From positions 1 to 53,348 of IMG/VR virus record IMGVR_UViG_3300029787_000068: a stretch of 53,348 nucleotides of DNA; one strand, given 5' to 3'. Origin of the DNA: a virus. Its lineage: Duplodnaviria > Caudoviricetes. The position numbers and the translations under genes are program-made. This document shows, piece by piece, positions 23,839 to 53,348 of the stretch (positions are counted from its first letter, which is position 1; each line of letters starts with the position of its first letter). The notes beneath the pieces are model-generated. The model saw only the letters and a list, made by a program, of their open reading frames with translations, did no database searches and was not told the origin of the DNA.

Positions 23839-23866
23839 ATTATACATCCGTTATCGGCAACGTCAA
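23839..23866 (-). promoter_or_regulatory. CCGAT-spacer promoter
   Basis: TTGACG-TTGCCGATAACGGATG (16 nt)-TATAAT. Confidence 0.75.
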
Positions 23867-31695: not shown

Positions 31696-32281
31696 TGGTC
31701 AAGTATCGCAACCTTTCATTGCTTACATCCCAAATATCGGGCCGATCATACTCGTCCAAAGATACGATCTTGCCTTGTAAAATATCACTCGAAACTTTTT
31801 CCGTGTCATGATAGTCAAACACATAAAATATCTCACAATCGTCACACGGAGTGTATCCCCCCGCTTTTCGATGAATTAGCAGATCCTTGACTAAATTATG
31901 CACCGCAATATCAAAAGCATGTGAAAAGTTGTTGCTGTCGTTGTGCGTGATTACAGAAGAGAACCCCTCTGCATCTTGCAACATGTTGTGCAATCGTAAG
32001 TATGCCGGAGATAGTTCGTCTTGACAGTACGCAAGGTGTTCGTCAATAACCTTTGACCCTTGCGGAAACGATCTTGGATCGTGATAGATGTAGTTCCAAA
32101 TATGAAAGTTCTCGATCTCCCAGTAGTTCATCGAGCGACGAAAAGATCGACGGAGGTCCGCATCCTGCCCGCCGGTCAAGCACACCACAGTGATGTTTGA
32201 GTCGGTGGCAAACAGTGAACCTCCATACAAGACTTCGTCTCCAGGTCGAGCAACAATCATCAAATGTTCAGCTTCACTCAT
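31664..32281 (-). CDS. PIG-L/LmbE deacetylase-like protein, degenerate metal site
   Basis: IVARPGDE...GG (canonical AHPDDE), VVCLT and VITH. Confidence 0.5.
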   Translation of the reverse strand: MSEAEHLMIVARPGDEVLYGGSLFATDSNITVVCLTGGQDADLRRSFRRSMNYWEIENFHIWNYIYHDPRSFPQGSKVIDEHLAYCQDELSPAYLRLHNMLQDAEGFSSVITHNDSNNFSHAFDIAVHNLVKDLLIHRKAGGYTPCDDCEIFYVFDYHDTEKVSSDILQGKIVSLDEYDRPDIWDVSNERLRYLTNEKIRPYSCQ

Positions 32282-33155
32282 CGGGTTGGTTCCTAAATCT
32301 TTCGGGATCCCAAGCTCCTTTGACGGCACCCTGGGGATACATCATTCTTCGGAGGTACGTCAGGATATCTGAGTGTACCGGATCGGCATCACTTTCGGCT
32401 GCGGGTTTATTTACCCACGCAATAATCTGTTGAATATCCAATTCGTTTTGGTCGTTGTCCAGTCCGAAAATATCCGACAACGCTGTCTGTGTCGTTGCCC
32501 AGTTCCCAGCAGTTCCATAGTCTACATCTTTGCCCAGCAGATCGGAATAAGATGCCCGCTGTGAAACTAGCATCGGCTCGAACGAATAGAACGGCATCTG
32601 ACATTGAGCATGCCATAGCCCAAGAATTTCGTCCTGAACATAGTAGTCGATGTTCTTCAGGCATTCGCCAATCATCCACGCCCCGACCTTCGGACGGAAC
32701 ATGTAGCAATGCATTCCGGTAGCCCCCAGGCATTTTCCAATCTTTTCATTGATCATGATCGGACCGACCCTGTGAAAACATCCGGCATACGCCAGTCCGT
32801 AATCGCGGGGAAGCATTTGATAGTACTTCACAAAGTCATCGAGGAACGTGTCGGGATCCAGCGGAACCGCATCGTCCTCAAAGATTAGTACTTCGTCATG
32901 CCCAGCGTTCAGGGCTTCACGCATGACCGCACAGTGAGACAGCGAACAGGCAACTGAACCCTTGCTGTGTGTTTCGTCTTCTCGATACTGACCAGCTTCA
33001 AGCGGGATCCCATCTTCGGCATCCCATGCTTGAAAGCGGTCAATGTCTGTGTTTAGTAATTCAACCCACACCTCCTCAAACTGCGACCAGCGATCAGGAC
33101 GCCGGTCTAGGTTGATGCAATACACCGCATCGAATAGTTCGTTTAATACGTTCAT
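32274..33155 (-). CDS. Glycosyltransferase family 25
   Basis: YCINLDRRPDRW, ACSLSH and LIFEDDA. Confidence 0.85.
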   Translation of the reverse strand: MNVLNELFDAVYCINLDRRPDRWSQFEEVWVELLNTDIDRFQAWDAEDGIPLEAGQYREDETHSKGSVACSLSHCAVMREALNAGHDEVLIFEDDAVPLDPDTFLDDFVKYYQMLPRDYGLAYAGCFHRVGPIMINEKIGKCLGATGMHCYMFRPKVGAWMIGECLKNIDYYVQDEILGLWHAQCQMPFYSFEPMLVSQRASYSDLLGKDVDYGTAGNWATTQTALSDIFGLDNDQNELDIQQIIAWVNKPAAESDADPVHSDILTYLRRMMYPQGAVKGAWDPERFRNQPDE

Positions 33156-33356: not shown

Positions 33357-33602
33357 TCAGCACCCCCTTTCTACACGGGCTGAAAAATCTTTGTTAGCTT
33401 CGATACGAGAATCGAAGTAGTGACCGCATGCCCAGCTGGTGTCTCCCACACCAATCCAACCCGTTACAAATCGGGCTTGAGTGGGGTCAACGGGATGCAG
33501 GTCCACGAGAATAATATATCCGTCTCTCGTTCCCTCTTCAGCGGGGATCAGGCTTGAGGCGACGATCATTCCGTTGATCCTTGGTAGGCAGTCTTGTGAC
33601 AT
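33357..33602 (-). CDS. Hypothetical protein
   Basis: AAGGA RBS after a promoter; FVTGW...W..GHYF motif. Confidence 0.6.
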   Translation of the reverse strand: MSQDCLPRINGMIVASSLIPAEEGTRDGYIILVDLHPVDPTQARFVTGWIGVGDTSWACGHYFDSRIEANKDFSARVERGC

Positions 33603-33642
33603 TGTTTTTTCCTTTGTTGAAGTATCGTTGATTGATGCCCTG

Positions 33643-33670
33643 ATTATAATACCGTTATCGGCAATGTAAA
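33643..33670 (-). promoter_or_regulatory. CCGAT-spacer promoter
   Basis: TTTACA-TTGCCGATAACGGTAT (16 nt)-TATAAT. Confidence 0.7.
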
Positions 33671-33689
33671 CCCCAATTCCTTAAAAAAA

Positions 33690-35304
33690 ATAAAAAAAAA
33701 TCGAGTCCCCTAACTAGGAGGCAGTCCGACTCGGGTTTCCATTCGTGTACTACCCGCCTCGCAGGTGCGCGCCCGCGAGGTGCCACTTGGTACATCTTCA
33801 ACAGCGGGTGAATTCATGTCCGCTGCATCCAACTTCTGCCTCCTAGTTAAAGGACTCGATACGATACGAGGGTAGATCACCGAACACCTTTTTGCTTGCC
33901 TTTAATCCGATGTGGTTCCATCGCTTGCAATCGACGGCATCGGCTGATTCCCTAATGACCCTCGAAATAATCGGGTGGCCTTTACGGGTCGGGCGGGTCG
34001 ATACATCATTAGCTCCCGCCTCCGGCACCTACCACGGTATCCGGCGGTGTCCGGTGATCTAACCTCGATACGAGTGAGTTTTTACTTCTGAGCAGGGTGT
34101 GAGTAAATATGCCCAGAGATTGCGGCGGCGTTTGCTTTAGGGGCTACGTTCCACTCAGGATCAATGTCCACTTTTGTGCTGCATCAGGTGGGACCGTATT
34201 AAGTTCCCAGCTGAGAGGTTTTATTTCAACCCTTCCCCATGTTCGCTCTGCATACCCCCTTCCGAACCTCTTACGAACTTAGGATCAACTCCCACGTTGT
34301 CTTTACACAGTTAGCTTCGATCCGTCCCACAACTGGATTGCACTCTTAGTGCGTAATGCAAAAGCACTCCCGTCACAGGTTGGCCCACTAACTGGCTGAC
34401 ACGGCCCGCCAGATTCGCACTGGGGGTCAGCTTCAAAGATCCGTACTGGTTTATAGCAAGAACCCACTCGATTGAATGACTAAGATCTTGAACCGAAACG
34501 GGGCGATATTCGCTGATCAGGCTTATCAGGAGGTGGGTTCAGCTAATGCTTTCGGCCCTCCTGCGAGATGGTCACACGTTCGCGTTGTGTGAGTCCCGTC
34601 GAGACGATTGACACGGTTCAAGATCTTAGTCACTCGGAGAGTAACCTGGGAGAGGGCATCACCCTGTCGGGTAGTCGAGCGTTATTGGTCCCGTCACTTT
34701 TGATGCCGCCCACCGCAATCGTAGCTGATGAGGAGCGACCATCAAAAGCCAGTTTATTGCAGTGGGTTGGGTGGTTGCTGTCGGAGTGCTTAGTTACTCA
34801 AGGCTACATTAAAACGCCATGTCCCGACCTTAGTGTTGGCTACAACCGTTTCACCCTCCCAGGTTACTCTCAAGAGTGTATTGAAAGGCTGACTCGTAGG
34901 GGAGTTAAACCCCCCGACACTGCATCCGAAAGTGAAACGCTGTAAAACGCTTCGGACTGCGGTTGTTCAATATCGTCATATCGAACCCCGATTGGCCCTT
35001 TACTTTCAGAAGTTACATCAGTGCCGCTTACTCAAGCGAGCCTTTCAATACACTCCATCGAGTGTGAGAGTAGAAGGTTCAAAGATTCACTTCTCCGAAT
35101 GGAGTCACAGCCACTTACAATCGGTCATGGATTTTCAAGCCATTAACTTTTTTTGAATCCTTGAACTTTCTACTCTCGAAGTTTTGTCGTACTGCTTCGC
35201 AGCCGGTGGGTACTTCTCCTCGACTAATCGTCGTGACCCTGTGTGATGTCGTTTGGTTCATTCGCATGTAAGTGAGTCACACAACTCACACTCAACTCTC
35301 ATGT
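33690..35304 (-). ncRNA. Long structured non-coding transcript: leader plus seven stem-closed RNA modules
   Basis: No credible ORF; promoter at 35310-35337; seven abutting 16-25 bp inverted-repeat pairs with G-U bias on the - strand; ends in a U-tract. Confidence 0.8.
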
Positions 35305-35309
35305 TCTTA

Positions 35310-35337
35310 ATAGTACCATTATCGGAAACATTGTCAA
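35310..35337 (-). promoter_or_regulatory. CCGAT-spacer promoter upstream of the ncRNA array
   Basis: TTGACA-ATGTTTCCGATAATGG (16 nt)-TACTAT; nearly identical to 52985-53012. Confidence 0.7.
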
Positions 35338-35428
35338 GCACAATCCAGACAATCTGAGAAAATAGTTTGCCGATAGCGGTTTAACCCTATAAAACAAGGG
35401 AAAACTATTTCTATCTATTTTTAGAAAA

Positions 35429-35444
35429 GTGCAGATGTCTGCAC
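35429..35444. promoter_or_regulatory. 16-bp palindromic site (one of at least ten copies)
   Basis: GTGCAGATGTCTGCAC; other copies are listed in findings. Confidence 0.65.
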
Positions 35445-35483
35445 ATCCGTACAGGTAATCTTTCCGATTTCGGAAGATTGAAA

Positions 35484-36377
35484 TTAGGTTGACACTGTTT
35501 CTAGTTGCTGCAAAAGATTGCGAAGACCTTCGGCCCGCTGCGAACCTCTCAACAAATTGTGTTGATCGCCTTCATCGTTACCGCTTGGAAGTCTGCAAAT
35601 GTATCCGCACATATCCACTTCACCATAAAACTTTGAAGGATCTTGAACTGCGTTCTTACGAAGTTCTGGTTCCCAGTGATCCCACAATCCTAACAAGCCA
35701 AGTCGATAAAGAAGTTCAACCTTGTCGGCTTTGCCGTACATGCACTCTTCATTGAATCGCTTGTCGTGGTTTGGTGTGAACGCTAGTTGTAACTCTGTCA
35801 GTCCGATACTTCGTTGCGTTCCAAAATCATATATTGATTTCAGAACTGGTGGGTCCGTCAAAAATGTATCGAGGTTGTCAACTCTCCATGTGGGGAATGC
35901 AAAGTATCCGGCCTCGGAATGATCTTCGGCAAACATACGAAACTGCATAAACCCATCGTCCCGAAAAAACATTCCACCGTCTTCGGGGCAGCACACATCT
36001 ACACCCTGCTCGAAACTAATATCGAGGCAATGGTTGCGGGCCGGATTTACGTTGGTGATATATTTTAATTTTTCTTTGGCTGATGGAAGGTTGTTGAACT
36101 CGGAGGGGAAGAACGGAATGTGGTAGATGTTTTCTTTTTGAACATCGTAAGCATGTAACATGCTTACAATCTCAATGCATGTTTGATTGTCAGCTATGCG
36201 ATTCAACAACCATCTTTTGCGAACCATGCCGAACTGGGATTCATGCTTCAAAATATATTCTAAATTCTTCAGGGTCTGGCCCTTCGGGTGCCTCGGAGGT
36301 AAATCGTTTCCAAGAATTCTCCATAGATCAAACACCATAACTTTATAACTCCATGAACTGGGTGTGCTGACATTCAT
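35484..36377 (-). CDS. Hypothetical protein, possibly GT-A-like
   Basis: Last gene of the glycosyltransferase operon; N.ARN..L and EDGG; TAATG coupling. Confidence 0.5.
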   Translation of the reverse strand: MNVSTPSSWSYKVMVFDLWRILGNDLPPRHPKGQTLKNLEYILKHESQFGMVRKRWLLNRIADNQTCIEIVSMLHAYDVQKENIYHIPFFPSEFNNLPSAKEKLKYITNVNPARNHCLDISFEQGVDVCCPEDGGMFFRDDGFMQFRMFAEDHSEAGYFAFPTWRVDNLDTFLTDPPVLKSIYDFGTQRSIGLTELQLAFTPNHDKRFNEECMYGKADKVELLYRLGLLGLWDHWEPELRKNAVQDPSKFYGEVDMCGYICRLPSGNDEGDQHNLLRGSQRAEGLRNLLQQLETVST

Positions 36378-36982
36378 TATCGAAGTGCTTCTGTGCGTAA
36401 AGGAATATCGGACAGCACCGATTTTTCCCAAGGTAAAAACATCGAAGTGGTTTCGCAGTCGTCGGTCACATCTTGTTTAGTTTTAACATATCTGTCGTCT
36501 TCAAATTTCCACTTAATATTAAAGTAATCGTCCGAGGTGTCCCACGGATAGTCGTGAGTATGAAGATCGACCGGACAAATATGTGTACGGTATATTGCGA
36601 TGTCGGCATCTCGCAGTCTAAGAAACATGTCCCAGGCAGCGTCCGACTTTCGGATGATTCTTTCGTCGAATCTGCCTACTCTACAAAACAGATTCTGATG
36701 TAGACCGATCAGTCTATGATCCCCCATGTCTACAAATCCATACCCGAAATCTAACAGCGTAACTAGCTCATCCAGATGCTGTCGGCTAGGTCGTGACCAC
36801 TGATCACAAATAATTGTGTATTGACCCTGGCTCTCTGCAACGCACTCATTCCACATCGTGGCTTGAGACTCCCACGGACCGAATAGTCGCGTCCTGGGCC
36901 ATTGTGCGAGCTTGAGACAGGTGACAGCCTTGTCATCGTCTGGCACCAATTTAGTGACTATCGCCTGAGTCGCTTGAGACAT
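36377..36982 (-). CDS. Degenerate GT2-like protein
   Basis: WNECV...Y.II.D and VGRFDER......D.AWD...R. Confidence 0.5.
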   Translation of the reverse strand: MSQATQAIVTKLVPDDDKAVTCLKLAQWPRTRLFGPWESQATMWNECVAESQGQYTIICDQWSRPSRQHLDELVTLLDFGYGFVDMGDHRLIGLHQNLFCRVGRFDERIIRKSDAAWDMFLRLRDADIAIYRTHICPVDLHTHDYPWDTSDDYFNIKWKFEDDRYVKTKQDVTDDCETTSMFLPWEKSVLSDIPLRTEALR

Positions 36983-37607
36983 CTAGCACAGCCTTCCGTA
37001 GCTTATTTTCAATGGATCGAAACTCTGATCGAGTTGTAGATCCTATGGGGTCAAAATCATAGTGGTAGAGAACGCTATCAATTTTATAAAACTTTTCTAC
37101 TTTTGCAGCCATCTCCGTAGACCACTCGGAATCCTCTCCGAAATCCTGGTCAGGGAAAGAAGTCCCCTCGGTGAGCGAACGTCTCCACACGTTGGTATGT
37201 GACGCCTTAGATATGTGTGCATCTTCCGTGATATATCCGGCAGTCACCAGTCGAGGATCGTATGTGCAAAGTATATCACGTTCCAAACCTCCATGGTGAA
37301 GCATCAGATCGTACTGTATAACGTCCACCCCAGGATTTAAACCTATAGCTTGCAAAATGGCATCGACGTAGTCGGGCGAAATTCGGTCATCGTCGTCAAC
37401 GAACGTGAGGTATTCTCCGGTCGCCATTCCCATCAACAGGTTCCGCTTTGTGCCGACAGTATGCACTTGGTTATCCAGCAGTGCAAGGATCTCCACGTCA
37501 TCGCGGCCCGAAGTCTGATCTTGCAATTCTGCAACCATCTCGGGAAAGTGTTTTCCTAGCCGGTCGGGAATGGTCGTGATTAAGATCGAGAGTTTTCGGG
37601 TTCCCAT
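36951..37607 (-). CDS. Glycosyltransferase family 2
   Basis: LSILITT, GTKRN, GEYLTFVDDDD and GED. Confidence 0.85.
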   Translation of the reverse strand: MGTRKLSILITTIPDRLGKHFPEMVAELQDQTSGRDDVEILALLDNQVHTVGTKRNLLMGMATGEYLTFVDDDDRISPDYVDAILQAIGLNPGVDVIQYDLMLHHGGLERDILCTYDPRLVTAGYITEDAHISKASHTNVWRRSLTEGTSFPDQDFGEDSEWSTEMAAKVEKFYKIDSVLYHYDFDPIGSTTRSEFRSIENKLRKAVLDVSSDSGDSH

Positions 37608-38485
37608 ATCCCTGGGATCTTGCTTCGCCCCTGCAAGTGTCTGGTGAAGGTGCATGGATGCTCTTTCCAATTTTTAGGTGTAAACCAATTGTTATACTTT
37701 TGAGAGATGGGAGATCCGGCAAACCAATGGATTCCTATCTGACTCGGAGGAAGGTCGTGACTCCACTCCCATATTTGCTCGATGCCTCTCCAGTTCCAAG
37801 GGTAAACATCATCCCCAGGTGAAGGTGTAAAAAGACGATGATTGTACCTCTCCATGATCCGTTGAGCCATGAAGTGTCCAGGGGAATGAGGTCGTATCTT
37901 TAAAATCTGACACACTCGGTTGGTGCCAAAATCTTGATATTGAGAAGGCTCCCCACCATCTTTACAGCTGTTATACATAAGTTCAAAAAACTTTAGTCCT
38001 GGCTTGCAACCTAAGAATCCAATAGTAAAGTCTCCGCAAGGCAAAGGTGCAACAAGGTCAGAGGACGCACACTTGTGCATTAGGTCGTCCATCGAATGCA
38101 TGTACAAAATATCCATGTCACTGTACCACCCACCGTGTTCATGCAGCACTTTCCACTGGTACATGTCGCACTGATGCACAGGATCCAAGTTACTTGGGAG
38201 ATCAACCACCTGAACATTTATAGGAAGATTGTATGCATCATGCATCCAGTCCGGTCCGTCATATCCGCAGAAGTCTTGTTGCTCTTGTGAAGTCCACACT
38301 GGCTTTGACTCAGAATCTCTCGACACATACAAAGTTGTTTCCCAGCTTGGATTGTGAAGGCAAAAAGTTTGCAGCGTCAAATACCGCAGCCACGACATCT
38401 TCCCGCCCGCCCAAAAAAAACACATTTTCTTGGGTATAGTTGTAACTTTATTCGACACTACCACGGTCCTCCTGACGCTTCCCAC
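37580..38485 (-). CDS. DxD glycosyltransferase (GT32/OCH1-like)
   Basis: IPK...FFW, HNPSWE, D......L..HGGWYSDMD and IHW. Confidence 0.75.
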   Translation of the reverse strand: MGSVRRTVVVSNKVTTIPKKMCFFWAGGKMSWLRYLTLQTFCLHNPSWETTLYVSRDSESKPVWTSQEQQDFCGYDGPDWMHDAYNLPINVQVVDLPSNLDPVHQCDMYQWKVLHEHGGWYSDMDILYMHSMDDLMHKCASSDLVAPLPCGDFTIGFLGCKPGLKFFELMYNSCKDGGEPSQYQDFGTNRVCQILKIRPHSPGHFMAQRIMERYNHRLFTPSPGDDVYPWNWRGIEQIWEWSHDLPPSQIGIHWFAGSPISQKYNNWFTPKNWKEHPCTFTRHLQGRSKIPGIWEPENSRS

Positions 38486-39198
38486 TTAATCTCTCCCGCC
38501 TCGGCCTGAGCTTTCTTTCGTTCATACAACTCTTTCGAGGGTATTACTAAACTACTCAGCCCTTGGGGTCGATGGTGATTCTGGTGGTAGCCTACAATTT
38601 GAGATGTAAAGACTGGTTTTAATCCCAGCCCATGGATTAAACAATCACCGAACCAATCGTCATCGTATCCTGGTTCGGTGAACTCTTCGTCATTGCCCCC
38701 AACAGCATACAGATCATTCTTCCACAACGCCCCCAAAAAAAAGAAAGGTCGTCTGTAGCTAGGGCTAGTGTATTCCATCAAAACTTGAAACTCTGGGGGA
38801 ACCCCTTCGATGTTGAACACAGTTGCAATGACAAATTCTTTAGGGTTCAGGGCGTAGCACAAATCTTGAATTGCGTTTCCTCGGTGTATTACGTCATCGG
38901 ACTGGGCAATAATAATCTCACCCTTTGCATGTCGGTACGCATGATTGCGAGCAACCGAAGGGTTTCGATATCGAGAATTTTCTAATCGGTGAAGTTTAAA
39001 GTTCGCATATCTTTCCCACTGCTTACACATCCACCAAGTCTCATCGTCAGATCCGTCATCTACAACAATCACCTCGAACTGTGGCGAATCATTTATCTGA
39101 GCATAGATAGATTCAAGAACTCGTTTAAGGTATTCTTCTTTGTTCTTAGTTGCAATGCATATCGATGCAGTTACACTTCCACAGGTTCGACAACTCAT
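38458..39198 (-). CDS. Glycosyltransferase family 2
   Basis: SICIATKN, EVIVVDDGSDD, ARN, SDD and GG.DEEF..PGYDD. Confidence 0.85.
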   Translation of the reverse strand: MSCRTCGSVTASICIATKNKEEYLKRVLESIYAQINDSPQFEVIVVDDGSDDETWWMCKQWERYANFKLHRLENSRYRNPSVARNHAYRHAKGEIIIAQSDDVIHRGNAIQDLCYALNPKEFVIATVFNIEGVPPEFQVLMEYTSPSYRRPFFFLGALWKNDLYAVGGNDEEFTEPGYDDDWFGDCLIHGLGLKPVFTSQIVGYHQNHHRPQGLSSLVIPSKELYERKKAQAEAGEIKWEASGGPW

Positions 39199-39222
39199 TG
39201 ATCGAGAATCTCCTCGTCCAGT

Positions 39223-40329
39223 TTATACAAAATCGACGTGTCGTGGTTTGGGTTCCAGAGCATACAGAATAGTTCGATTCTTATTGTTAAACATACACCT
39301 CGGACAGCCTCGGGCATCAAACTCATTGAAGTTGTGCTTCTTCATGTCGGATTCCCAGAGAGACTTGAAAGTCTGATCTTTTATCGACCCGATTATGCCC
39401 TTCTCGTTGTAAGCTAAAACACAGCATCGGTACACGTTCAGGTCGCCACCGATGTAAGTGTTAAACTCTTGATATCCACAGTATGAATACTCGGGGTTCT
39501 TCAGTTCCAGATCCTCGGTCCGGTCTCCAAAGTTGTTGAAGACTTTGAAACTTTCGTCGGACAGGCTCGACGCTTCTCTAATGATCGCCTTTGCTTCGTC
39601 ATAGAATCCATCGAAGTAGCTGATACCCTCGTCCTGAAAGATCGCAGATATTCGTACATTGTCCACGCCTGCTTCTTTTGCTCGGACAGTGCAGTCAAGT
39701 ATCTCTTTCCAGTTTTCCTTGGTGACTACAAAACCAATTCCAATGATCAGGTCGGAGTTGGGTGTTTCTTTTTTAGCCGCACACAAGTCGTCGATGTTTT
39801 TCCAGGTACGATGAAAGTGTGTCTTTGCAACTCGTCGAATGCCGGAGTAGGTGTCTTCGTTTCCGGCATCGATAGAAAACCGAACCCACTGACCTCGAAG
39901 GTATGACTCGATCAATCCCTTTCTAAACACCGCCCCGTTGCTAACAACCCCAAGACCCATACCTCGGTCCGATACTGCATTGAAGATCTCGATGTGATCG
40001 GGGTGTACAGTCGGCTCACCTCCACCAGTTACTTGGATCGCACCGACTCCCATCTCGTAGCAATCGTCAAGGATCTCCATAACTTTTGGAGTCTCGATCA
40101 TCCGCTTCGGATTATTAGTCCCAACCTGGGCGAGTTCGGAGTCGCCAGCAAAAAGTTGGTTCGAGGTATAACCCGACATCCTGTATGCACAGAACGAACA
40201 GTCTTGATTGCACAAGTCCGAAATAATTAGCTGGACTTGAGTTGGAACAATTTGTTTTCCTGATCTGATACTATCTATCCGCTCTCGGTGATGTATCACT
40301 TTCAACGGGCTATATGGTGATCCTTCCAT
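39223..40329 (-). CDS. Radical SAM enzyme with SPASM/twitch domain
   Basis: CNQDCSFC, TGGGEP and C-terminal C...G..YRCC...IG......W...CxxC. Confidence 0.9.
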   Translation of the reverse strand: MEGSPYSPLKVIHHRERIDSIRSGKQIVPTQVQLIISDLCNQDCSFCAYRMSGYTSNQLFAGDSELAQVGTNNPKRMIETPKVMEILDDCYEMGVGAIQVTGGGEPTVHPDHIEIFNAVSDRGMGLGVVSNGAVFRKGLIESYLRGQWVRFSIDAGNEDTYSGIRRVAKTHFHRTWKNIDDLCAAKKETPNSDLIIGIGFVVTKENWKEILDCTVRAKEAGVDNVRISAIFQDEGISYFDGFYDEAKAIIREASSLSDESFKVFNNFGDRTEDLELKNPEYSYCGYQEFNTYIGGDLNVYRCCVLAYNEKGIIGSIKDQTFKSLWESDMKKHNFNEFDARGCPRCMFNNKNRTILYALEPKPRHVDFV

Positions 40330-44303: not shown

Positions 44304-44738
44304 TTAGTTCATCTCGGGATCGCCTGGGGGATGGACTTCATCATCTGAATCAAGATTGTTCAGATCTTCCCAGTTGAAATTCCCAGACTTGGAAGCGTCT
44401 GTGAACGCTGCTTCGAGTTTGAAAACATAGCTGGCCGCATCGGTCAGAAGGATGCTCCACTTCTCATCACACTCATCTTGAAACTCGCGGGCCGATCTCA
44501 AAGCACCTTCGACAGAACACGCTCGACTAATAACTTCCGAAACAGTTTCCTCTTCATCTTCGTCCTCTTCGTCGACAGCGTATTCGTCGGTTGCAACTTC
44601 AGCGATCACCGCCCAGGGTAAATCCATTCCGCAATTGCAATCTTCATGTTCACATACTGACTCGTCACCTAAGAAGTCAACAACTAACAGCTGGATGTTC
44701 TCGACGTTGCCGCTGAACTCTTCTATTTGTCTCTCCAT
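44304..44738 (-). CDS. Highly acidic hypothetical protein
   Basis: GGAGG RBS; D/E-rich. Confidence 0.6.
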   Translation of the reverse strand: MERQIEEFSGNVENIQLLVVDFLGDESVCEHEDCNCGMDLPWAVIAEVATDEYAVDEEDEDEEETVSEVISRACSVEGALRSAREFQDECDEKWSILLTDAASYVFKLEAAFTDASKSGNFNWEDLNNLDSDDEVHPPGDPEMN

Positions 44739-45583
44739 CGCACAGCCTCCGTGATCTGTTCGCGTCTATCGTGTTGAATTTGTTTGTAGTCTTCATTCAA
44801 CTCGATACCAATCCATTTGCGATCAAGTAACTCGGCAACAACTCCAGTTGTGCCGCTTCCATAAAACGGATCCAATACTGTACCACCTTTCGGACAGCCA
44901 GCAAGGATGCATAATTTTACCAGATCAGGTGGGTAGGTTGCAAAGTGAGATCCTGTGAATGCCTTAGTCGTGATCTCCCAAACAGATCTGCGATTCTTTT
45001 TCTCACCGACTGTGTATTCAAAGTCTCGTCTGGTTTGAAAATCTCCGGTCCTTCCCTGGCCGGATTTACTGTTTGCATACTTTCCACGTTTGACGTTTAT
45101 CTTCATCCCTGGATGCAACGAGTCTTCAGCGATTGCGGCCTGATCATAATAGTATTTTTTTTGTTTCGAGAACATGAATATATATTCGTGAGATCGAGTG
45201 CATCTATCTGCACAATTCTCGGGTGACGGATTCGGCTTACTCCAGACGATGTCCTGGCGAAGGATCCAGCCATCGGCCTGCAATGCGAAGGCTAACTTCC
45301 ACGGGATGCCTGCGAGGTTCTTGCTGGTGCGTCCAGGTCGCTCCATGATGTACGAATCCCCGATGACTATCCACAGAGTCCCGTTATCTTTGAGGGCTTT
45401 GCGGGCCGACCTGAAGACTCTCACAAGCTCTACCAAGTACTGCCCCGTGGTCTTCTCTAGGCCGATCTGCGCAGGATCCCCGTAATCCCGTAGCTGAAAG
45501 TACGGAGGAGATGTCACGATAGAACTTACCGATCCGGCTGATAGCTTTTGGAGTTCTTTGCGAGCGTCACCAAATATGATCAT
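44723..45583 (-). CDS. DNA amino-methyltransferase, beta class (N4-C or N6-A)
   Basis: TSPPY precedes VLDPFYGSGTT; also LRQDIVWSKPNP and HFATYP. Confidence 0.9.
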   Translation of the reverse strand: MIIFGDARKELQKLSAGSVSSIVTSPPYFQLRDYGDPAQIGLEKTTGQYLVELVRVFRSARKALKDNGTLWIVIGDSYIMERPGRTSKNLAGIPWKLAFALQADGWILRQDIVWSKPNPSPENCADRCTRSHEYIFMFSKQKKYYYDQAAIAEDSLHPGMKINVKRGKYANSKSGQGRTGDFQTRRDFEYTVGEKKNRRSVWEITTKAFTGSHFATYPPDLVKLCILAGCPKGGTVLDPFYGSGTTGVVAELLDRKWIGIELNEDYKQIQHDRREQITEAVRWRDK

Positions 45584-49137: not shown

Positions 49138-49165
49138 ATTATACTTCCTTTATCGGCAACCGCAA
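49138..49165 (-). promoter_or_regulatory. CCGAT-spacer promoter
   Basis: TTGCGG-TTGCCGATAAAGGAAG (16 nt)-TATAAT. Confidence 0.65.
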
Positions 49166-50557: not shown

Positions 50558-50734
50558 AGCTTACATGAGAGTTGGGATTGGTTATCCCTTACATGCGTTT
50601 GAACCAAGTGACAAACCAACGGCAAAGATGCAGTAATGCAAGTTGAGCCGTGAGCCGGTTGCCGGTGTCGAATCAATAAGTTAGTTATCAAAAAACAATT
50701 TGTGTTTCTTTTCTCTTTTCAACAAGGAGCGATT

Positions 50735-51553
50735 ATGCCAATCACTTTGAAACTAGCAGGCGATTTGTGTAAAGCGAACGGGTTTGGATCCCTACTAACT
50801 TTGCCGAATCACAATGCCAAGCTTGCCAAGAGCAAGGGCTTCTACAATTGTGGAATTTCTTTTGTTCCTGGCAACCTTTCAGGCCATGAAGTTTGTCCTG
50901 GTCGTGGCAACTGTTTCACCTTTGAGGGTGAATCGGTTTGCCTTGCGACCAAGGGACAAGCGGAGGGCTTGTCATCTATCAACGAGGCTAGGAAAGCACG
51001 AACCGTGTTTCGGTTCGCGGATCCTGAGCGGTTCGACGATGTGCTACGTGCAGAAATGCACAAAGCGGATCGGGCCGCTAGTCGGGCAGATGTGCCGGTT
51101 GCGTTTCGACCGAACATCTTTTCTGACTTGCCTTGGCATAGGTCGCATCCTTGGATGTTCACCGAATTTGCTCATTGGAGCTTCTACGGTTACACCAAGG
51201 TGCGTGGGTTCTATCGGGAATATCTCGGTGGCAAGCTTCCCGCGAATTATCATCTGACTTATTCCTACTCGGAACGGGTCGACGATGATTATTGTCGGGA
51301 CATCCTCGGGCAGGGTGGTACGATGGCCGTTGTCTTCAAAGGCAAGACGGCTGCGGATCTCCCGAAACGGTTTCTCGGTCACGATGTGATCGATGCCGTT
51401 TCATCCGATCTTCGTTTTCAGGATCGGCCAGGGGTTGTTTGCGGGCTGGCCGTTAAGACGCCAAAACGTAAAGCGGATGCAATCCGCTTTCGCGGGCTGG
51501 TGACTCGGTCAGGCTTTGTGGTGGATCCGGCAACCGACAGCCGGTGCGAATAG
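50735..51553 (+). CDS. Gene-product-88 (GP88)-like Cys-motif protein
   Basis: VCP....C.......CL, R.N..SD, FYGYTK, PANYHLTYS.SE and SDLRF.D; AAGGAG RBS. Confidence 0.7.
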   Translation: MPITLKLAGDLCKANGFGSLLTLPNHNAKLAKSKGFYNCGISFVPGNLSGHEVCPGRGNCFTFEGESVCLATKGQAEGLSSINEARKARTVFRFADPERFDDVLRAEMHKADRAASRADVPVAFRPNIFSDLPWHRSHPWMFTEFAHWSFYGYTKVRGFYREYLGGKLPANYHLTYSYSERVDDDYCRDILGQGGTMAVVFKGKTAADLPKRFLGHDVIDAVSSDLRFQDRPGVVCGLAVKTPKRKADAIRFRGLVTRSGFVVDPATDSRCE

Positions 51554-52774: not shown

Positions 52775-52984
52775 TTATATCTCCCTGTTGAAGGAAAGGT
52801 TTCTTGGTCAACTCTCGGGGTGACCGTCTTATTCCCCGTTGAGGATTTTCTACGGTTCCTGCCAACCGCTTCGGAAGCAATCTTTTAAGAGGATCCGAAG
52901 TTCCTCTCTGGATGTTCTACGGTTCCAGCAACCGCTTGAGTTTCAGTCTTTAAAGAGCAAACTCAAGTAACTCTCATGTAATCA

Positions 52985-53012
52985 ATATTACCATAATCGG
53001 ATACATTGTCAA
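52985..53012 (-). promoter_or_regulatory. CCGAT-spacer promoter
   Basis: TTGACA-ATGTATCCGATTATGG (16 nt)-TAATAT. Confidence 0.7.
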
Positions 53013-53348
53013 GTAAAATCCAGAAAAATAACCGGATTATTTTATTTTCTCGGAAATATATTTTGAGTTTTTTTATGGGGGGTGGACCAACCGTGTCCAT
53101 TGGTAAACTGGGTAAGTGCCTACGCCTGCACAGAGGCTCTTATTTAGCCGCTAACGGAAGATCTTTTGGCATGCAAGCTATAGTATGCCCGCCCGCCCTA
53201 AAATTACCGCCAGCGGCACCCACTACATCTTGGGGGTCACTCGATATCGACGCACAAGATGTAGTACCCCATATGTTGATTCCATCGCCTGGGGTCTGAG
53301 ATAATCAGGCCGAACCCGAATTGGAAAATTTCTCAGATAGACGTGGGT

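What the first reader, a model, noticed from the sequence alone, without database searches (positions are those of the whole stretch)
33690..35337. Polycistronic array of seven different structured RNAs, each closed by a long stem
Seen: ~1.6 kb with no credible ORF, a promoter at 35310-35337 and a U-tract at the end. It is tiled by seven non-nested inverted-repeat pairs (+ coordinates): 35066-35089/35154-35177 (24 bp), 34874-34890/35039-35055 (17), 34637-34654/34854-34871 (18), 34474-34495/34614-34635 (22), 34071-34086/34455-34470 (16), 33867-33888/34046-34067 (22) and 33700-33724/33836-33860 (25). Linkers are only 1-10 nt. Of 11 non-Watson-Crick positions in the stems, 8 are G-U on the - strand and only 2 would be on +, matching the promoter direction. 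The enclosed 64-368 nt cargos are unrelated to each other but contain their own hairpins. Inference: either a phage small-RNA operon whose closing stems insulate folding or act as dsRNA processing sites (RNase III-type, as in pre-rRNA or T7 early mRNA), releasing separate RNAs such as decoys, sponges or mimics, or one giant multi-domain RNA. I do not recognise it as a described class.
Basis: partly seen in the sequence, partly recalled or inferred. Interest (0 to 1): 0.92.

Follow-up and report, generated by a model that had tools for sequence, protein, structure and literature searches.

The report
Modular structured-RNA operon in marine phage
An uncultured marine phage carries a 1.6-kb non-coding transcription unit made of seven unrelated folded RNA domains, most of them shut by a long helix, which close relatives carry in a different number or not at all; no described RNA family matches it and its function is unknown.

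Summary
Between a sigma-70-type promoter (35337-35310) and a U-run (33699-33683) on the minus strand lie a 126-nt leader and seven unrelated domains. Six are closed by near-perfect 17-25 bp helices: 6 such stems against a mean of 0.15 in 300 shuffles. The seventh closure (M5) is weak and competes with two nested long-range helices. The strand is the minus strand. Stem mismatches are 8 G-U against 2 A-C, and changes in the one diverged relative keep pairing, often through G-U.

The relative G001 lacks M3, M6 and M7 as whole units and has a replaced M1 cargo. More distant relatives have no array. Rfam, tRNA, repeat-array, RT, RNase III and ORF-family searches found nothing. One metatranscriptome contig lies inside M5.

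Best reading (0.5): a phage accessory operon of separate stable RNAs, whose closing helices insulate folding and are cut by host RNase III. Processing and function are inferred, not shown. Main rival (0.3): one giant multi-domain RNA. Only two array variants exist, so covariation evidence is thin.

The parts
35310..35337 (-). Sigma-70-type promoter (TTGACA, 16-nt spacer with TG, TACTAT). It belongs to a promoter class with a conserved spacer motif.
   Evidence: Pattern scan, 10 of 12 matches. The spacer motif occurs at 5 sites against 0.31 expected. Alignment of the five promoters. Conserved in G001.
35367..35381 (+). Inverted copy of the promoter-spacer motif, just upstream of the promoter. 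Possible operator.
   Evidence: (I10). The operator function is inferred.
35178..35303 (-). Leader of about 126 nt, not closed by a long stem. It contains small hairpins, one with a compensatory change.
   Evidence: The transcription start is inferred from the -10 position. 92% identical to G001. One hairpin changes on both sides and keeps pairing. z = -0.7.
35066..35177 (-). M1: 112 nt with a 24-bp closing helix. The cargo is replaced or hypervariable in the relative.
   Evidence: z -5.9; p 0.95. In G001 the stem keeps pairing through 4 two-sided and 1 one-sided change, while the cargo cannot be aligned.
35056..35065 (-). 10-nt M1-M2 'linker' that looks like an orphan 3' arm. Eight of its bases pair with the M4-M5 junction (34472-34465).
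   Evidence: I11; I13; pair probabilities 0.91-1.00.
34874..35055 (-). M2: 182 nt with a 17-bp perfect closing helix (24 bp with G-U and one mismatch).
   Evidence: z -8.6; p 1.00. 92% identical to G001, with compensatory changes in the closing stem and an inner hairpin.
34637..34871 (-). M3: 235 nt with an 18-bp closing helix. Absent as a unit from G001/L007.
   Evidence: z -5.9; p 0.97. Unit-wise absence.
34474..34635 (-). M4: 162 nt with a 22-bp closing helix. A GAAA loop is kept while its flanks change.
   Evidence: z -6.1; p 1.00. In G001, two A-U pairs become G-U on the minus strand.
34071..34470 (-). M5: 400 nt, present in both array variants. Its 16-bp closure is weak and competes with nested helices.
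   Evidence: z -1.4; closure p 0.00. The only part covered by a contig of an RNA library.
34087..34296 (-). M5 inner core, the most conserved part of the array.
   Evidence: 98.1% identical to G001 (4 mismatches in 210 nt), in the top 0.8% of 8559 windows of 210 nt across the two genomes.
33867..34067 (-). M6: 201 nt with a 22-bp closing helix. Absent from G001.
   Evidence: z -5.9; p 0.95.
33700..33860 (-). M7: 161 nt with a 25-bp closing helix that abuts the U-run. Absent from G001.
   Evidence: z -7.5; p 0.96.
33683..33699 (-). U-run (9 U, A, 8 U) directly after the last closing helix. Putative intrinsic terminator.
   Evidence: In G001 the same U-run directly follows the 3' arm of M5.
35420..35449 (-). 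Terminator-like hairpin of the upstream 315-aa gene. It would insulate the array from read-through.

Best explanation
The stretch is a self-contained, lineage-specific accessory operon for non-coding RNA in an uncultured marine tailed phage.

Host RNA polymerase starts at a sigma-70-type promoter of a class the phage uses several times. It makes an RNA of about 1.6 kb from the minus strand and stops at a U-run that directly follows the last closing helix. The RNA folds into a leader and seven unrelated domains. Six are shut by a helix of 17-25 near-perfect base pairs formed by the domain's own two ends.

I take these helices to do two jobs:
1. They keep each domain from mispairing with its neighbours.
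2. Being about two turns of regular double-stranded RNA, they are cut by the host's RNase III, or the short A/U-rich linkers are cut by RNase E. Each domain is then released as a separate, exonuclease-resistant RNA with base-paired ends.

The domains then act in trans and independently of each other, most likely as protein-binding decoys or regulators during host takeover or counter-defence. M5 is the conserved core. M1, M3, M6 and M7 are exchangeable cassettes.

Shown here: strand, promoter and terminator motifs, helices beyond chance, pairing kept through substitutions, unit-wise presence or absence, and no known family.

Inferred: transcription extent, cleavage, release, and trans action as decoys.
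For: - Helices far beyond chance: 6 stems against a mean of 0.15 (maximum 2) in 300 shuffles. All 6 pairs with at least 91% complementarity, of 22 in the window, lie here. No comparable stems occur elsewhere in the 53-kb window or the 79-kb G001, nor in G002 or G003.
- Closing stems dominate the ensemble of the full transcript, with p 0.95-1.00 for 6 of 7. Module z-scores are -5.9 to -8.6 for those six.
- Minus-strand RNA: MFE is -639 against -592 kcal/mol for the plus strand. Stem mismatches are 8 G-U against 2 A-C in the window and 6 against 2 in G001.
- Changes in closing stems between the window and G001. M1: 4 two-sided changes and 1 one-sided change, all keeping pairing. M2: 1 two-sided change kept and 1 pair broken to A-C. 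M4: 2 A-U pairs become G-U.
- Over the MFE pairs of alignable parts, 326 pairs give 271 unchanged, 12 one-sided kept, 12 two-sided kept, 28 broken and 3 gapped. The M1 cargo alignment in that count is unreliable.
- Own promoter and terminator. The promoter belongs to a 5-member class. The upstream gene has its own terminator.
- Independence of the units. G001/L007 and L021 carry leader+M1+M2+M4+M5 only, with M3 (237 nt) and M6+M7 (372 nt) missing at helix boundaries. L020 has all seven at 99.75% identity.
- Relatives with a 58% identical flanking protein have the two flanking genes 41 nt apart and no array.
- The modules diverge no faster than genes: 88-92% against a genome mean of 87%. The M5 core is 98.1% identical, in the top 0.8%.
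- Weak hint of accumulation: the one contig of an RNA library that lays on the 2.5-kb stretch lies inside M5 (34082-34343). The flanking genes are uncovered.
- That RNase III cuts regular dsRNA of about 20 bp and releases 16S and 23S rRNA from long-range stems is textbook knowledge. I recalled it and did not test it here.
Against: - Only two diverged array variants exist (the window type and the G001 type), so covariation rests on few events. 28 of 326 MFE pairs are broken in the relative.
- No RNA ends were mapped. The RNA evidence is one 264-nt contig in one library, and that library could contain DNA.
- The full-length ensemble does not form the M5 closure (p 0.00). Instead it ties the leader to the 3' part of M5, and the M1-M2 linker to the M4-M5 junction, in both variants. 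That looks more like one large RNA.
- No phage RNase III gene was found in the held parts of the genomes, and the host is unknown. Cleavage therefore rests on the general presence of RNase III in bacteria.
- Linkers of 1-3 nt leave little room for single-strand nucleases.
- Nothing bears on the proposed decoy role.
Confidence: 0.5

Rival explanations
1. The array is one giant multi-domain RNA, functionally comparable to GOLLD or ROOL. The leader, M1, M2, M4 and M5 would form a single folded particle of about 1 kb, held together by nested long-range helices. M3, M6 and M7 would be optional peripheral domains. The closing helices are then structural arms, not processing sites.
For: - The partition function of the full transcript gives a leader:M5-3' helix (35298-35284 with 34104-34090; 13 of 15 positions at p>=0.69). 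It also gives an 8-bp helix between the M1-M2 linker and the M4-M5 junction (p 0.91-1.00). The M5 closure is not formed, and this holds in both variants.
- The common core (leader, M1 stem, M2, M4, M5) is present in both variants.
- A GAAA loop in M4 is kept while its flanks change.
- Six of the 8 differences between two 99.75% identical copies lie in or beside M5 hairpin loops, as expected for contact loops.
- Phage-borne giant RNAs with a conserved and a variable half are known. I recalled this; of PMC12286853 I saw only the listing and the start of the abstract.
Against: - Three of seven domains can be absent, and the M1 cargo can be replaced. A particle with a fixed architecture would be expected to tolerate this poorly.
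- The two nested helices are invariant in both variants, so no covariation supports them.
- They share the GAG/CUC stem-base motif, so they can arise as cross-pairing of that motif.
- In G001 the 3' arm of M5 differs so as to pair better with the unchanged 5' arm (G-U to G-C, C-A to C-G). This supports the M5 closure.
- No Rfam match to GOLLD, ROOL or any large RNA, and no tRNA genes nearby.
Confidence: 0.3
2. The inverted repeats are DNA-level elements: a pile-up of MITE-like insertions, or cruciform or recombination sites in a hyperplastic region. Any RNA would be incidental.
For: - The units are flanked by inverted repeats and are present or absent as units at short CTC microhomologies.
- The surrounding region is variable. 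An extra small ORF is present in G001, and the 81-aa gene and the array are both absent in L023.
- All arms begin with GAG and end with CUC.
Against: - Each unit is single-copy in the 53-kb window and the 79-kb G001. No further copies were found by BLAST or nhmmer.
- No target-site duplications are seen at the M3 boundaries.
- The arms share only 3-5 terminal bases, too few for one transposase.
- Strand-asymmetric G-U (8:2 and 6:2) and A-to-G changes that keep pairing only on the minus strand point to selection on RNA.
- The cargos are conserved at gene-like or higher levels.
- A dedicated promoter and terminator bracket the array.
- There is no GC-skew turn at the locus.
Confidence: 0.05
3. 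The array is a cis-acting element: a long structured untranslated region, or a decay or transcription insulator serving the neighbouring genes, rather than trans-acting RNAs.
For: It sits between two gene blocks on the same strand. It is followed within about 30 nt by the promoter of the 81-aa gene.
Against: - It has its own promoter and a strong U-run terminator, and the downstream gene has its own promoter.
- 1.6 kb of seven different conserved folds is far more than insulation needs.
- Relatives manage with the flanking genes 41 nt apart.
Confidence: 0.05
4. The region hides small protein genes, and the helices regulate their translation.
For: - Several ORFs of 40-125 aa exist on both strands.
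- A 57-aa plus-strand ORF inside the M5 core stays open in G001.
Against: - 8 of 8 ORFs have no family above threshold in Pfam or PHROGs.
- The 125-aa ORF is destroyed by the M3 absence, and the leader ORF by 1-nt indels.
- The 57-aa ORF lies antisense to the promoter. Its survival is trivial at 98% DNA identity, and 2 of 57 residues differ with no synonymous change seen.
Confidence: 0.02

Closest known systems
Bacterial rRNA operons with RNase III processing stems (recalled textbook knowledge)
   Same: One promoter-to-terminator transcript carries several structured RNAs. Each is looped out by a long-range helix of about two turns, formed by its own flanks.
   Different: The cargos are not rRNA or any Rfam family. 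There are seven domains of 112-400 nt, with helices only 1-10 nt apart. The domain number varies between near relatives. Cleavage was not tested.
GOLLD and ROOL giant phage-associated RNAs (PMC12286853: listing and start of abstract only; other details recalled)
   Same: Large non-coding RNA carried by phages, multi-domain, with a conserved part and a variable part, and of unknown function.
   Different: No covariance-model match. No adjacent tRNA genes. It is longer, at 1.6 kb. The domains are individually closed by long helices and are lost as units.
Phage tRNA / stable-RNA clusters, such as the T4 tRNA region with its two extra stable RNAs (recalled)
   Same: A polycistronic cluster of stable structured RNAs in a lytic phage, processed by host nucleases. 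The terminal helix of each RNA is formed by its 5' and 3' ends.
   Different: ARAGORN finds no tRNA or tmRNA in the window or in G001-G003. The closing helices are 17-25 bp rather than 7 bp.
Repeat-based RNA arrays: CRISPR, TIGR (PMC12045711, start of abstract only), ToxI, RNA anti-CRISPRs (PMC10651486, start of abstract only)
   Same: Tandem units in one transcript that are cut into separate small RNAs. They are found in phages and vary in unit number.
   Different: The units here share no repeat beyond a 3-5 nt stem-base motif. No Nop-domain (Tas-like) protein or reverse transcriptase is present in the held genome parts.
Terminal-stem-closed viral or bacterial decoy RNAs: adenovirus VA RNA, EBERs, Y RNAs (recalled; analogy only)
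   Same: RNAs of 100-200 nt whose two ends form a long terminal helix enclosing a structured central domain. They act by binding host proteins.
   Different: No sequence or model match. Y RNA families in Rfam gave no hit. No Ro-type partner was looked for. Here seven different ones are chained together.
MITEs such as Correia elements (recalled)
   Same: Short units bounded by inverted repeats, present or absent between strains. When transcribed, the repeats form RNase III substrates.
   Different: Single-copy. No target duplication. The arms are not alike. G-U is strand-asymmetric and the cargos are conserved.

Membership tests
Any Rfam 15 family (including GOLLD, ROOL, OLE, tmRNA, Y RNA, 6S, RNase P, IMES, ribozymes, riboswitches) | Match to the family's covariance model | tested here: not met
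   0 matches at gathering score in the whole window. At E<=10 on 33400-35600, the only match is a chance mir-191 hit outside the array. 0 matches on M5 alone.
GOLLD / ROOL type giant phage RNA | Neighbouring tRNA genes or a prophage setting (recalled as typical, not strictly defining) | tested here: not met
   No tRNA in the window or in G001, G002, G003.
rRNA-operon-type processing stems | A long-range helix of about two turns formed by the flanks of each mature RNA | tested here: met
   Six helices of 17-25 bp with p 0.95-1.00. The M5 closure is ambiguous.
rRNA-operon-type processing stems | Staggered cleavage of the helix by RNase III | not testable with these tools
   No end-mapped RNA data. 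The single RNA contig cannot show ends.
Phage tRNA array | Cloverleaf tRNA genes | tested here: not met
   ARAGORN finds 0 genes.
CRISPR / TIGR / ToxI-type repeat array | Repeated units of like sequence | tested here: not met
   Tandem Repeats Finder reports only four short repeats of about two copies, two rows of which describe the U-run. All-against-all comparison of the modules gives matches of 12 nt or less.
CRISPR / TIGR / ToxI-type repeat array | Associated effector gene (a Nop-domain Tas was tested) | tested here: not met
   PF01798 is absent from G000 and G001. These records are 46% and 63% complete, so absence is not proven.
Retron non-coding RNA | Adjacent reverse transcriptase | tested here: not met
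   PF00078 is absent from G000 and G001.
MITE / Correia-like element | Multiple dispersed copies with like terminal repeats and target-site duplication | tested here: not met
   No further copies in the window, G001-G003, L022 or L023. No duplication at the M3 boundaries. The host genome is unknown, so copies there could not be tested.
Intrinsic terminator | A G+C-rich helix directly followed by a U-run | tested here: met
   (site at 33720-33707 plus the U-run). In both variants the 3' arm of the last closing helix abuts the U-run. Termination itself was not tested.
Sigma-70 promoter | -35 and -10 hexamers at 16-18 nt spacing | tested here: met
   10 of 12 matches with an extended TG. Four more promoters of the same build are in the window. 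Activity was not tested.

The most novel reading that the evidence does not exclude
The locus is an RNA cassette array, a counterpart in RNA of phage anti-defence gene islands.

- Unrelated structured RNAs are each packaged in a standard two-turn helix 'adaptor' with a conserved GAG/CUC base.
- They are swapped in and out between phage strains like integron cassettes.
- They are cut apart by a host double-strand RNase.
- Each then neutralises a different host factor or immune sensor as a decoy, or as a sponge for a protein or a signalling nucleotide.
- M5, whose hairpin loops vary between otherwise identical phages while its core is nearly frozen, would be the arms-race interface.
Probability: 0.15. 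Interest if true: 0.95.

Novelty: new variant of a known kind. Interest (0 to 1): 0.75.

Why it matters
Phage non-coding RNAs are far less explored than phage proteins, and the few large ones known (GOLLD, ROOL) are still without a function. This locus offers seven new structured RNA folds in one transcription unit.

It also comes with a natural experiment already in hand: relatives with seven, four or no domains, and one domain whose cargo was replaced while its helix was kept by compensatory change.

If the helices are processing sites, this is a compact natural design for expressing many stable RNAs from one promoter, which is useful for RNA engineering. If the domains are decoys, it would open RNA-based counter-defence beyond CRISPR mimics. 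If it is one particle, it is among the largest phage RNAs and a target for cryo-EM. The phage is widespread in marine metagenomes: 20 rows from 13 studies hold part of the stretch.

Tried and rejected
**Known RNA families.** Rfam at gathering score on the window found nothing. Rfam at E<=10 on the locus and on M5 alone gave only one chance miRNA hit, outside the array. ARAGORN found none.

**DNA similarity.** blastn against 50,697 phage records gave no match.

**Exact-probe scans.**
- Viral contigs with an M5 probe found only G001.
- Viral contigs with M3 and M7 probes found none.
- Genome contigs with an M5 probe found none.
- The leader probe returned 0 although G001 holds it. Exact scans can therefore miss, and these negatives are weak.

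**Relatives.**
- The 315-aa and GT25 proteins found only G001 in viral contigs.
- TerL found G001 plus two fragments, G002 and G003. Both span the syntenic interval but have no GT25 and no cluster of long stems.
- The metagenome scan gave L020-L023.
- A TerL alignment against genome contigs found no relative, so the host stays unknown.
- nhmmer of all modules against G002, G003, L022, L023 and the rest of the window and G001 gave only a weak leader hit (E 0.019).

**Genes that would point to a known system.** RNase III, reverse transcriptase and Nop/Tas are absent from G000 and G001. Both records are incomplete.

**Neighbouring orphan proteins.**
- The 81-aa protein has 2 homologues, both in its own lineage. 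The Atlas gave only unnamed viral clusters.
- The 315-aa and 201-aa proteins have no Pfam or PHROGs family.

**ORFs in the array.** No family was found.

**Reads.** Of the 30 bins laid, run X20 (RNA) covers 4, and the rest have no cover. Parts without cover are no evidence of absence. The DNA runs X4, X6 and X11 gave only short pieces at 99% identity or more, and no joints.

**Literature.** Five searches and passages of PMC10690425 showed nothing like a chain of unrelated stem-closed RNAs in a phage.

**Other.**
- I considered and dropped a replication origin, because GC skew shows no turn.
- I considered a tetraloop-receptor reading of M5, but the motif is imperfect.
- I did not apply E. coli RNase III box rules, because the host is unknown.
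Full report
**Setting.** The window is an IMG/VR virus record of 53,348 bases, judged 46% complete. It encodes a terminase large subunit, a portal and head proteins of a tailed phage, almost all on the minus strand. Public runs that hold the stretch are marine metagenomes: 20 rows from 13 studies. The array lies in an accessory block of glycosyltransferases, a radical-SAM protein and a nucleotide-kinase-like protein.

**The observation.**
- Reading the minus strand and the repeat finder confirm six of the seven inverted-repeat pairs at the stated coordinates.
- The seventh pair (M5) has no exact seed, but pairs at 15 of 16 positions if G-U is allowed.
- All six pairs with at least 91% complementarity, among 22 listed for the whole window, lie in this 1.5 kb.
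- A G-U-tolerant stem scan finds 6 stems of at least 16 bp here, against a mean of 0.15 and a maximum of 2 in 300 dinucleotide shuffles.
- Nothing comparable occurs elsewhere in the window, in the 79-kb relative G001, or in G002 and G003.
- Folded alone, the six modules have z-scores of -5.9 to -8.6. M5 has -1.4 and the leader -0.7.
- A promoter with 10 of 12 consensus positions and an extended -10 sits at 35337-35310. A helix plus U-run closes the unit.
- The promoter is one of five in the window built alike, with a conserved spacer motif (5 sites against 0.31 expected).

**Not coding.**
- Eight ORFs of 50-125 aa on both strands have no family in Pfam or PHROGs.
- In the relative, the largest ORF is destroyed by the absence of M3.
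- The leader has three 1-nt indels, and the 5' half of M5 has 1- and 2-nt indels.
- A 57-aa antisense ORF in the M5 core survives. At 98% DNA identity that says nothing.

**Relatives.** Searches with the two flanking proteins, with TerL and with probes gave the following.
- G001/L007 is a colinear phage at 84-92% nucleotide identity.
- L021 is of the same type.
- L020 is the window type, at 99.75% identity.
- L022 and L023 are more distant, with a 58% identical flanking protein.
- G002 and G003 have TerL at 85% identity.

G001 and L021 carry the leader, M1, M2, M4 and M5, followed at once by the same U-run. M3 (237 nt) and M6+M7 (372 nt) are missing exactly at helix boundaries, with a CTC microhomology at the M3 site. 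In L023 the two flanking genes are 41 nt apart. Neither the array nor the 81-aa gene that follows it is present. G002 and G003 span the syntenic interval without a cluster of stems. The array is therefore a recent, lineage-specific insert whose domains come and go as units. The direction, gain or loss, cannot be told.

**Pairing is under selection, on the minus strand.**
- M1: the stem differs from its G001 counterpart at five pairs. Four changed on both sides and one on one side, and all still pair. An A-C mismatch is kept. The cargo between the arms cannot be aligned.
- M2: one closing pair flips from A-U to U-A and one becomes A-C. An inner hairpin changes from U-A to C-G.
- M4: two closing pairs and one inner pair go from A-U to G-U. 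That is neutral only for the minus-strand RNA.
- Leader: one hairpin changes a C-G pair to G-C, together with its loop.
- Over all MFE pairs of the alignable parts, 24 changed pairs are kept and 28 are broken, of 326. The M1 cargo contributes 11 of the broken pairs through a poor alignment.
- With two variants this is suggestive, not statistical proof.

**Conservation.**
- Modules are 88-92% identical, against a genome mean of 87%. The 315-aa neighbour is 74% identical.
- The M5 inner core (34087-34296) is 98.1% identical, in the top 0.8% of windows. It is one of five such regions in the two genomes.
- Six of the eight differences between the window and L020 over 3,170 nt fall in M5, in or beside three hairpin loops. 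One site has three states across the three variants.

**Architecture of the whole transcript.**
- In the partition function, six closing helices have probabilities of 0.95-1.00. The M5 closure has 0.00.
- Instead, the 10-nt M1-M2 'linker' pairs with the M4-M5 junction (8 bp, p 0.91-1.00) and encloses M2-M4. The leader pairs with the 3' part of M5. The same holds in G001.
- Both alternative helices are invariant, so they cannot be tested by covariation. They also use the GAG/CUC motif that all stem bases share.
- In G001 the 3' arm of M5 differs so as to pair better with its 5' arm, where it also has to serve as the terminator helix.
- I therefore count six robust closures and one open question.

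**Expression.** Of four runs laid, the one RNA library gave a single 264-nt contig at 34082-34343, inside M5, with four differences. Nothing lay on the flanking genes. Contigs cannot show ends or strand, and DNA may be present in the library, so this is only a hint.

**What it is not.**
- No Rfam family and no tRNA or tmRNA.
- No repeat units.
- No reverse transcriptase, RNase III or Nop-domain gene in the held genome parts.
- No further copies of any module.
- No GC-skew turn.
- Five literature searches and passages of one paper showed no description of such a chain. That paper's supplements could not be read.

**Mechanism.** I commit to an accessory operon of separate stable RNAs (0.5).
- The helices insulate folding. 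This is supported by their dominance in the ensemble.
- Being regular dsRNA of about two turns, they are cut by host RNase III, as in rRNA operons. This is recalled knowledge and was not tested.
- Unit-wise loss argues that the domains work independently.
- The setting is a variable accessory region, with one hypervariable cargo and loop-focused variation in M5. This fits host takeover or counter-defence, but that step is pure inference.
- The main rival is one giant RNA (0.3). DNA-level elements, a cis element and hidden ORFs are unlikely.

**Novelty and score.** The design, long-range helices looping out structured RNAs in one transcript, is that of rRNA operons. Phage-borne large RNAs are also known. 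The cargos, the chaining of seven unrelated folds, the shared stem base and the cassette-like variation are not described in anything I could search. I rate it a new variant of a known kind, with interest 0.75. The main weakness is that only two variants and no end-mapped RNA data exist.

Noticed in passing
window 23846-23860, 33650-33664, 35314-35328, 49145-49159, 52969-53013 (all minus); inverted copy at 35367-35381: A promoter class with a -35 TTGACA-like box, a conserved near-palindromic spacer motif (CCGATAAYGG) and a -10 box. The motif may be an operator for a phage regulator. There are 5 sites against 0.31 expected.
   Followed up: partly
window 32274-33155 and 36951-40329 (minus): The array sits in a cluster of four glycosyltransferase-like genes (GT25, DXD-type, GtrB-like), a radical-SAM gene and a nucleotide-kinase-like gene. 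These may serve DNA or surface-glycan modification.
   Followed up: partly
window 33357-33602 (minus); L023:5563-5605: The 81-aa orphan gene right after the array has its own promoter of the same class. It is absent together with the array in the distant relative. Its only homologues are in its own lineage.
   Followed up: partly
L007:8156-8390: G001 has an extra small ORF and a strong terminator hairpin between the array and the 81-aa gene. The window lacks both. This marks the region as hyperplastic.
   Followed up: no
window 34130-34132, 34220-34225, 34340-34345 (M5): Six of the 8 differences between two 99.75% identical copies (window and L020) cluster in or beside three M5 hairpin loops. 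One site has three states across the three variants.
   Followed up: partly
all seven closing helices, e.g. window 35175-35177/35066-35068: Every closing helix starts with GAG and ends with CUC, often CGAG...CUCG, although the arms are otherwise unlike. The cause is unexplained. It could be a nuclease recognition site, stacking, or a recombination microhomology.
   Followed up: partly
The DNA search, scope viral contigs: An exact 25-nt probe that is present in G001 returned no match, although an earlier probe had found the same contig. Negative results of these scans should be read with care.
   Followed up: yes
window 44723-45583 (minus) and 50702-51553 (plus): An N6/N4 DNA methylase (PF01555, E 9e-50) and a GP88-domain protein.
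   Followed up: no
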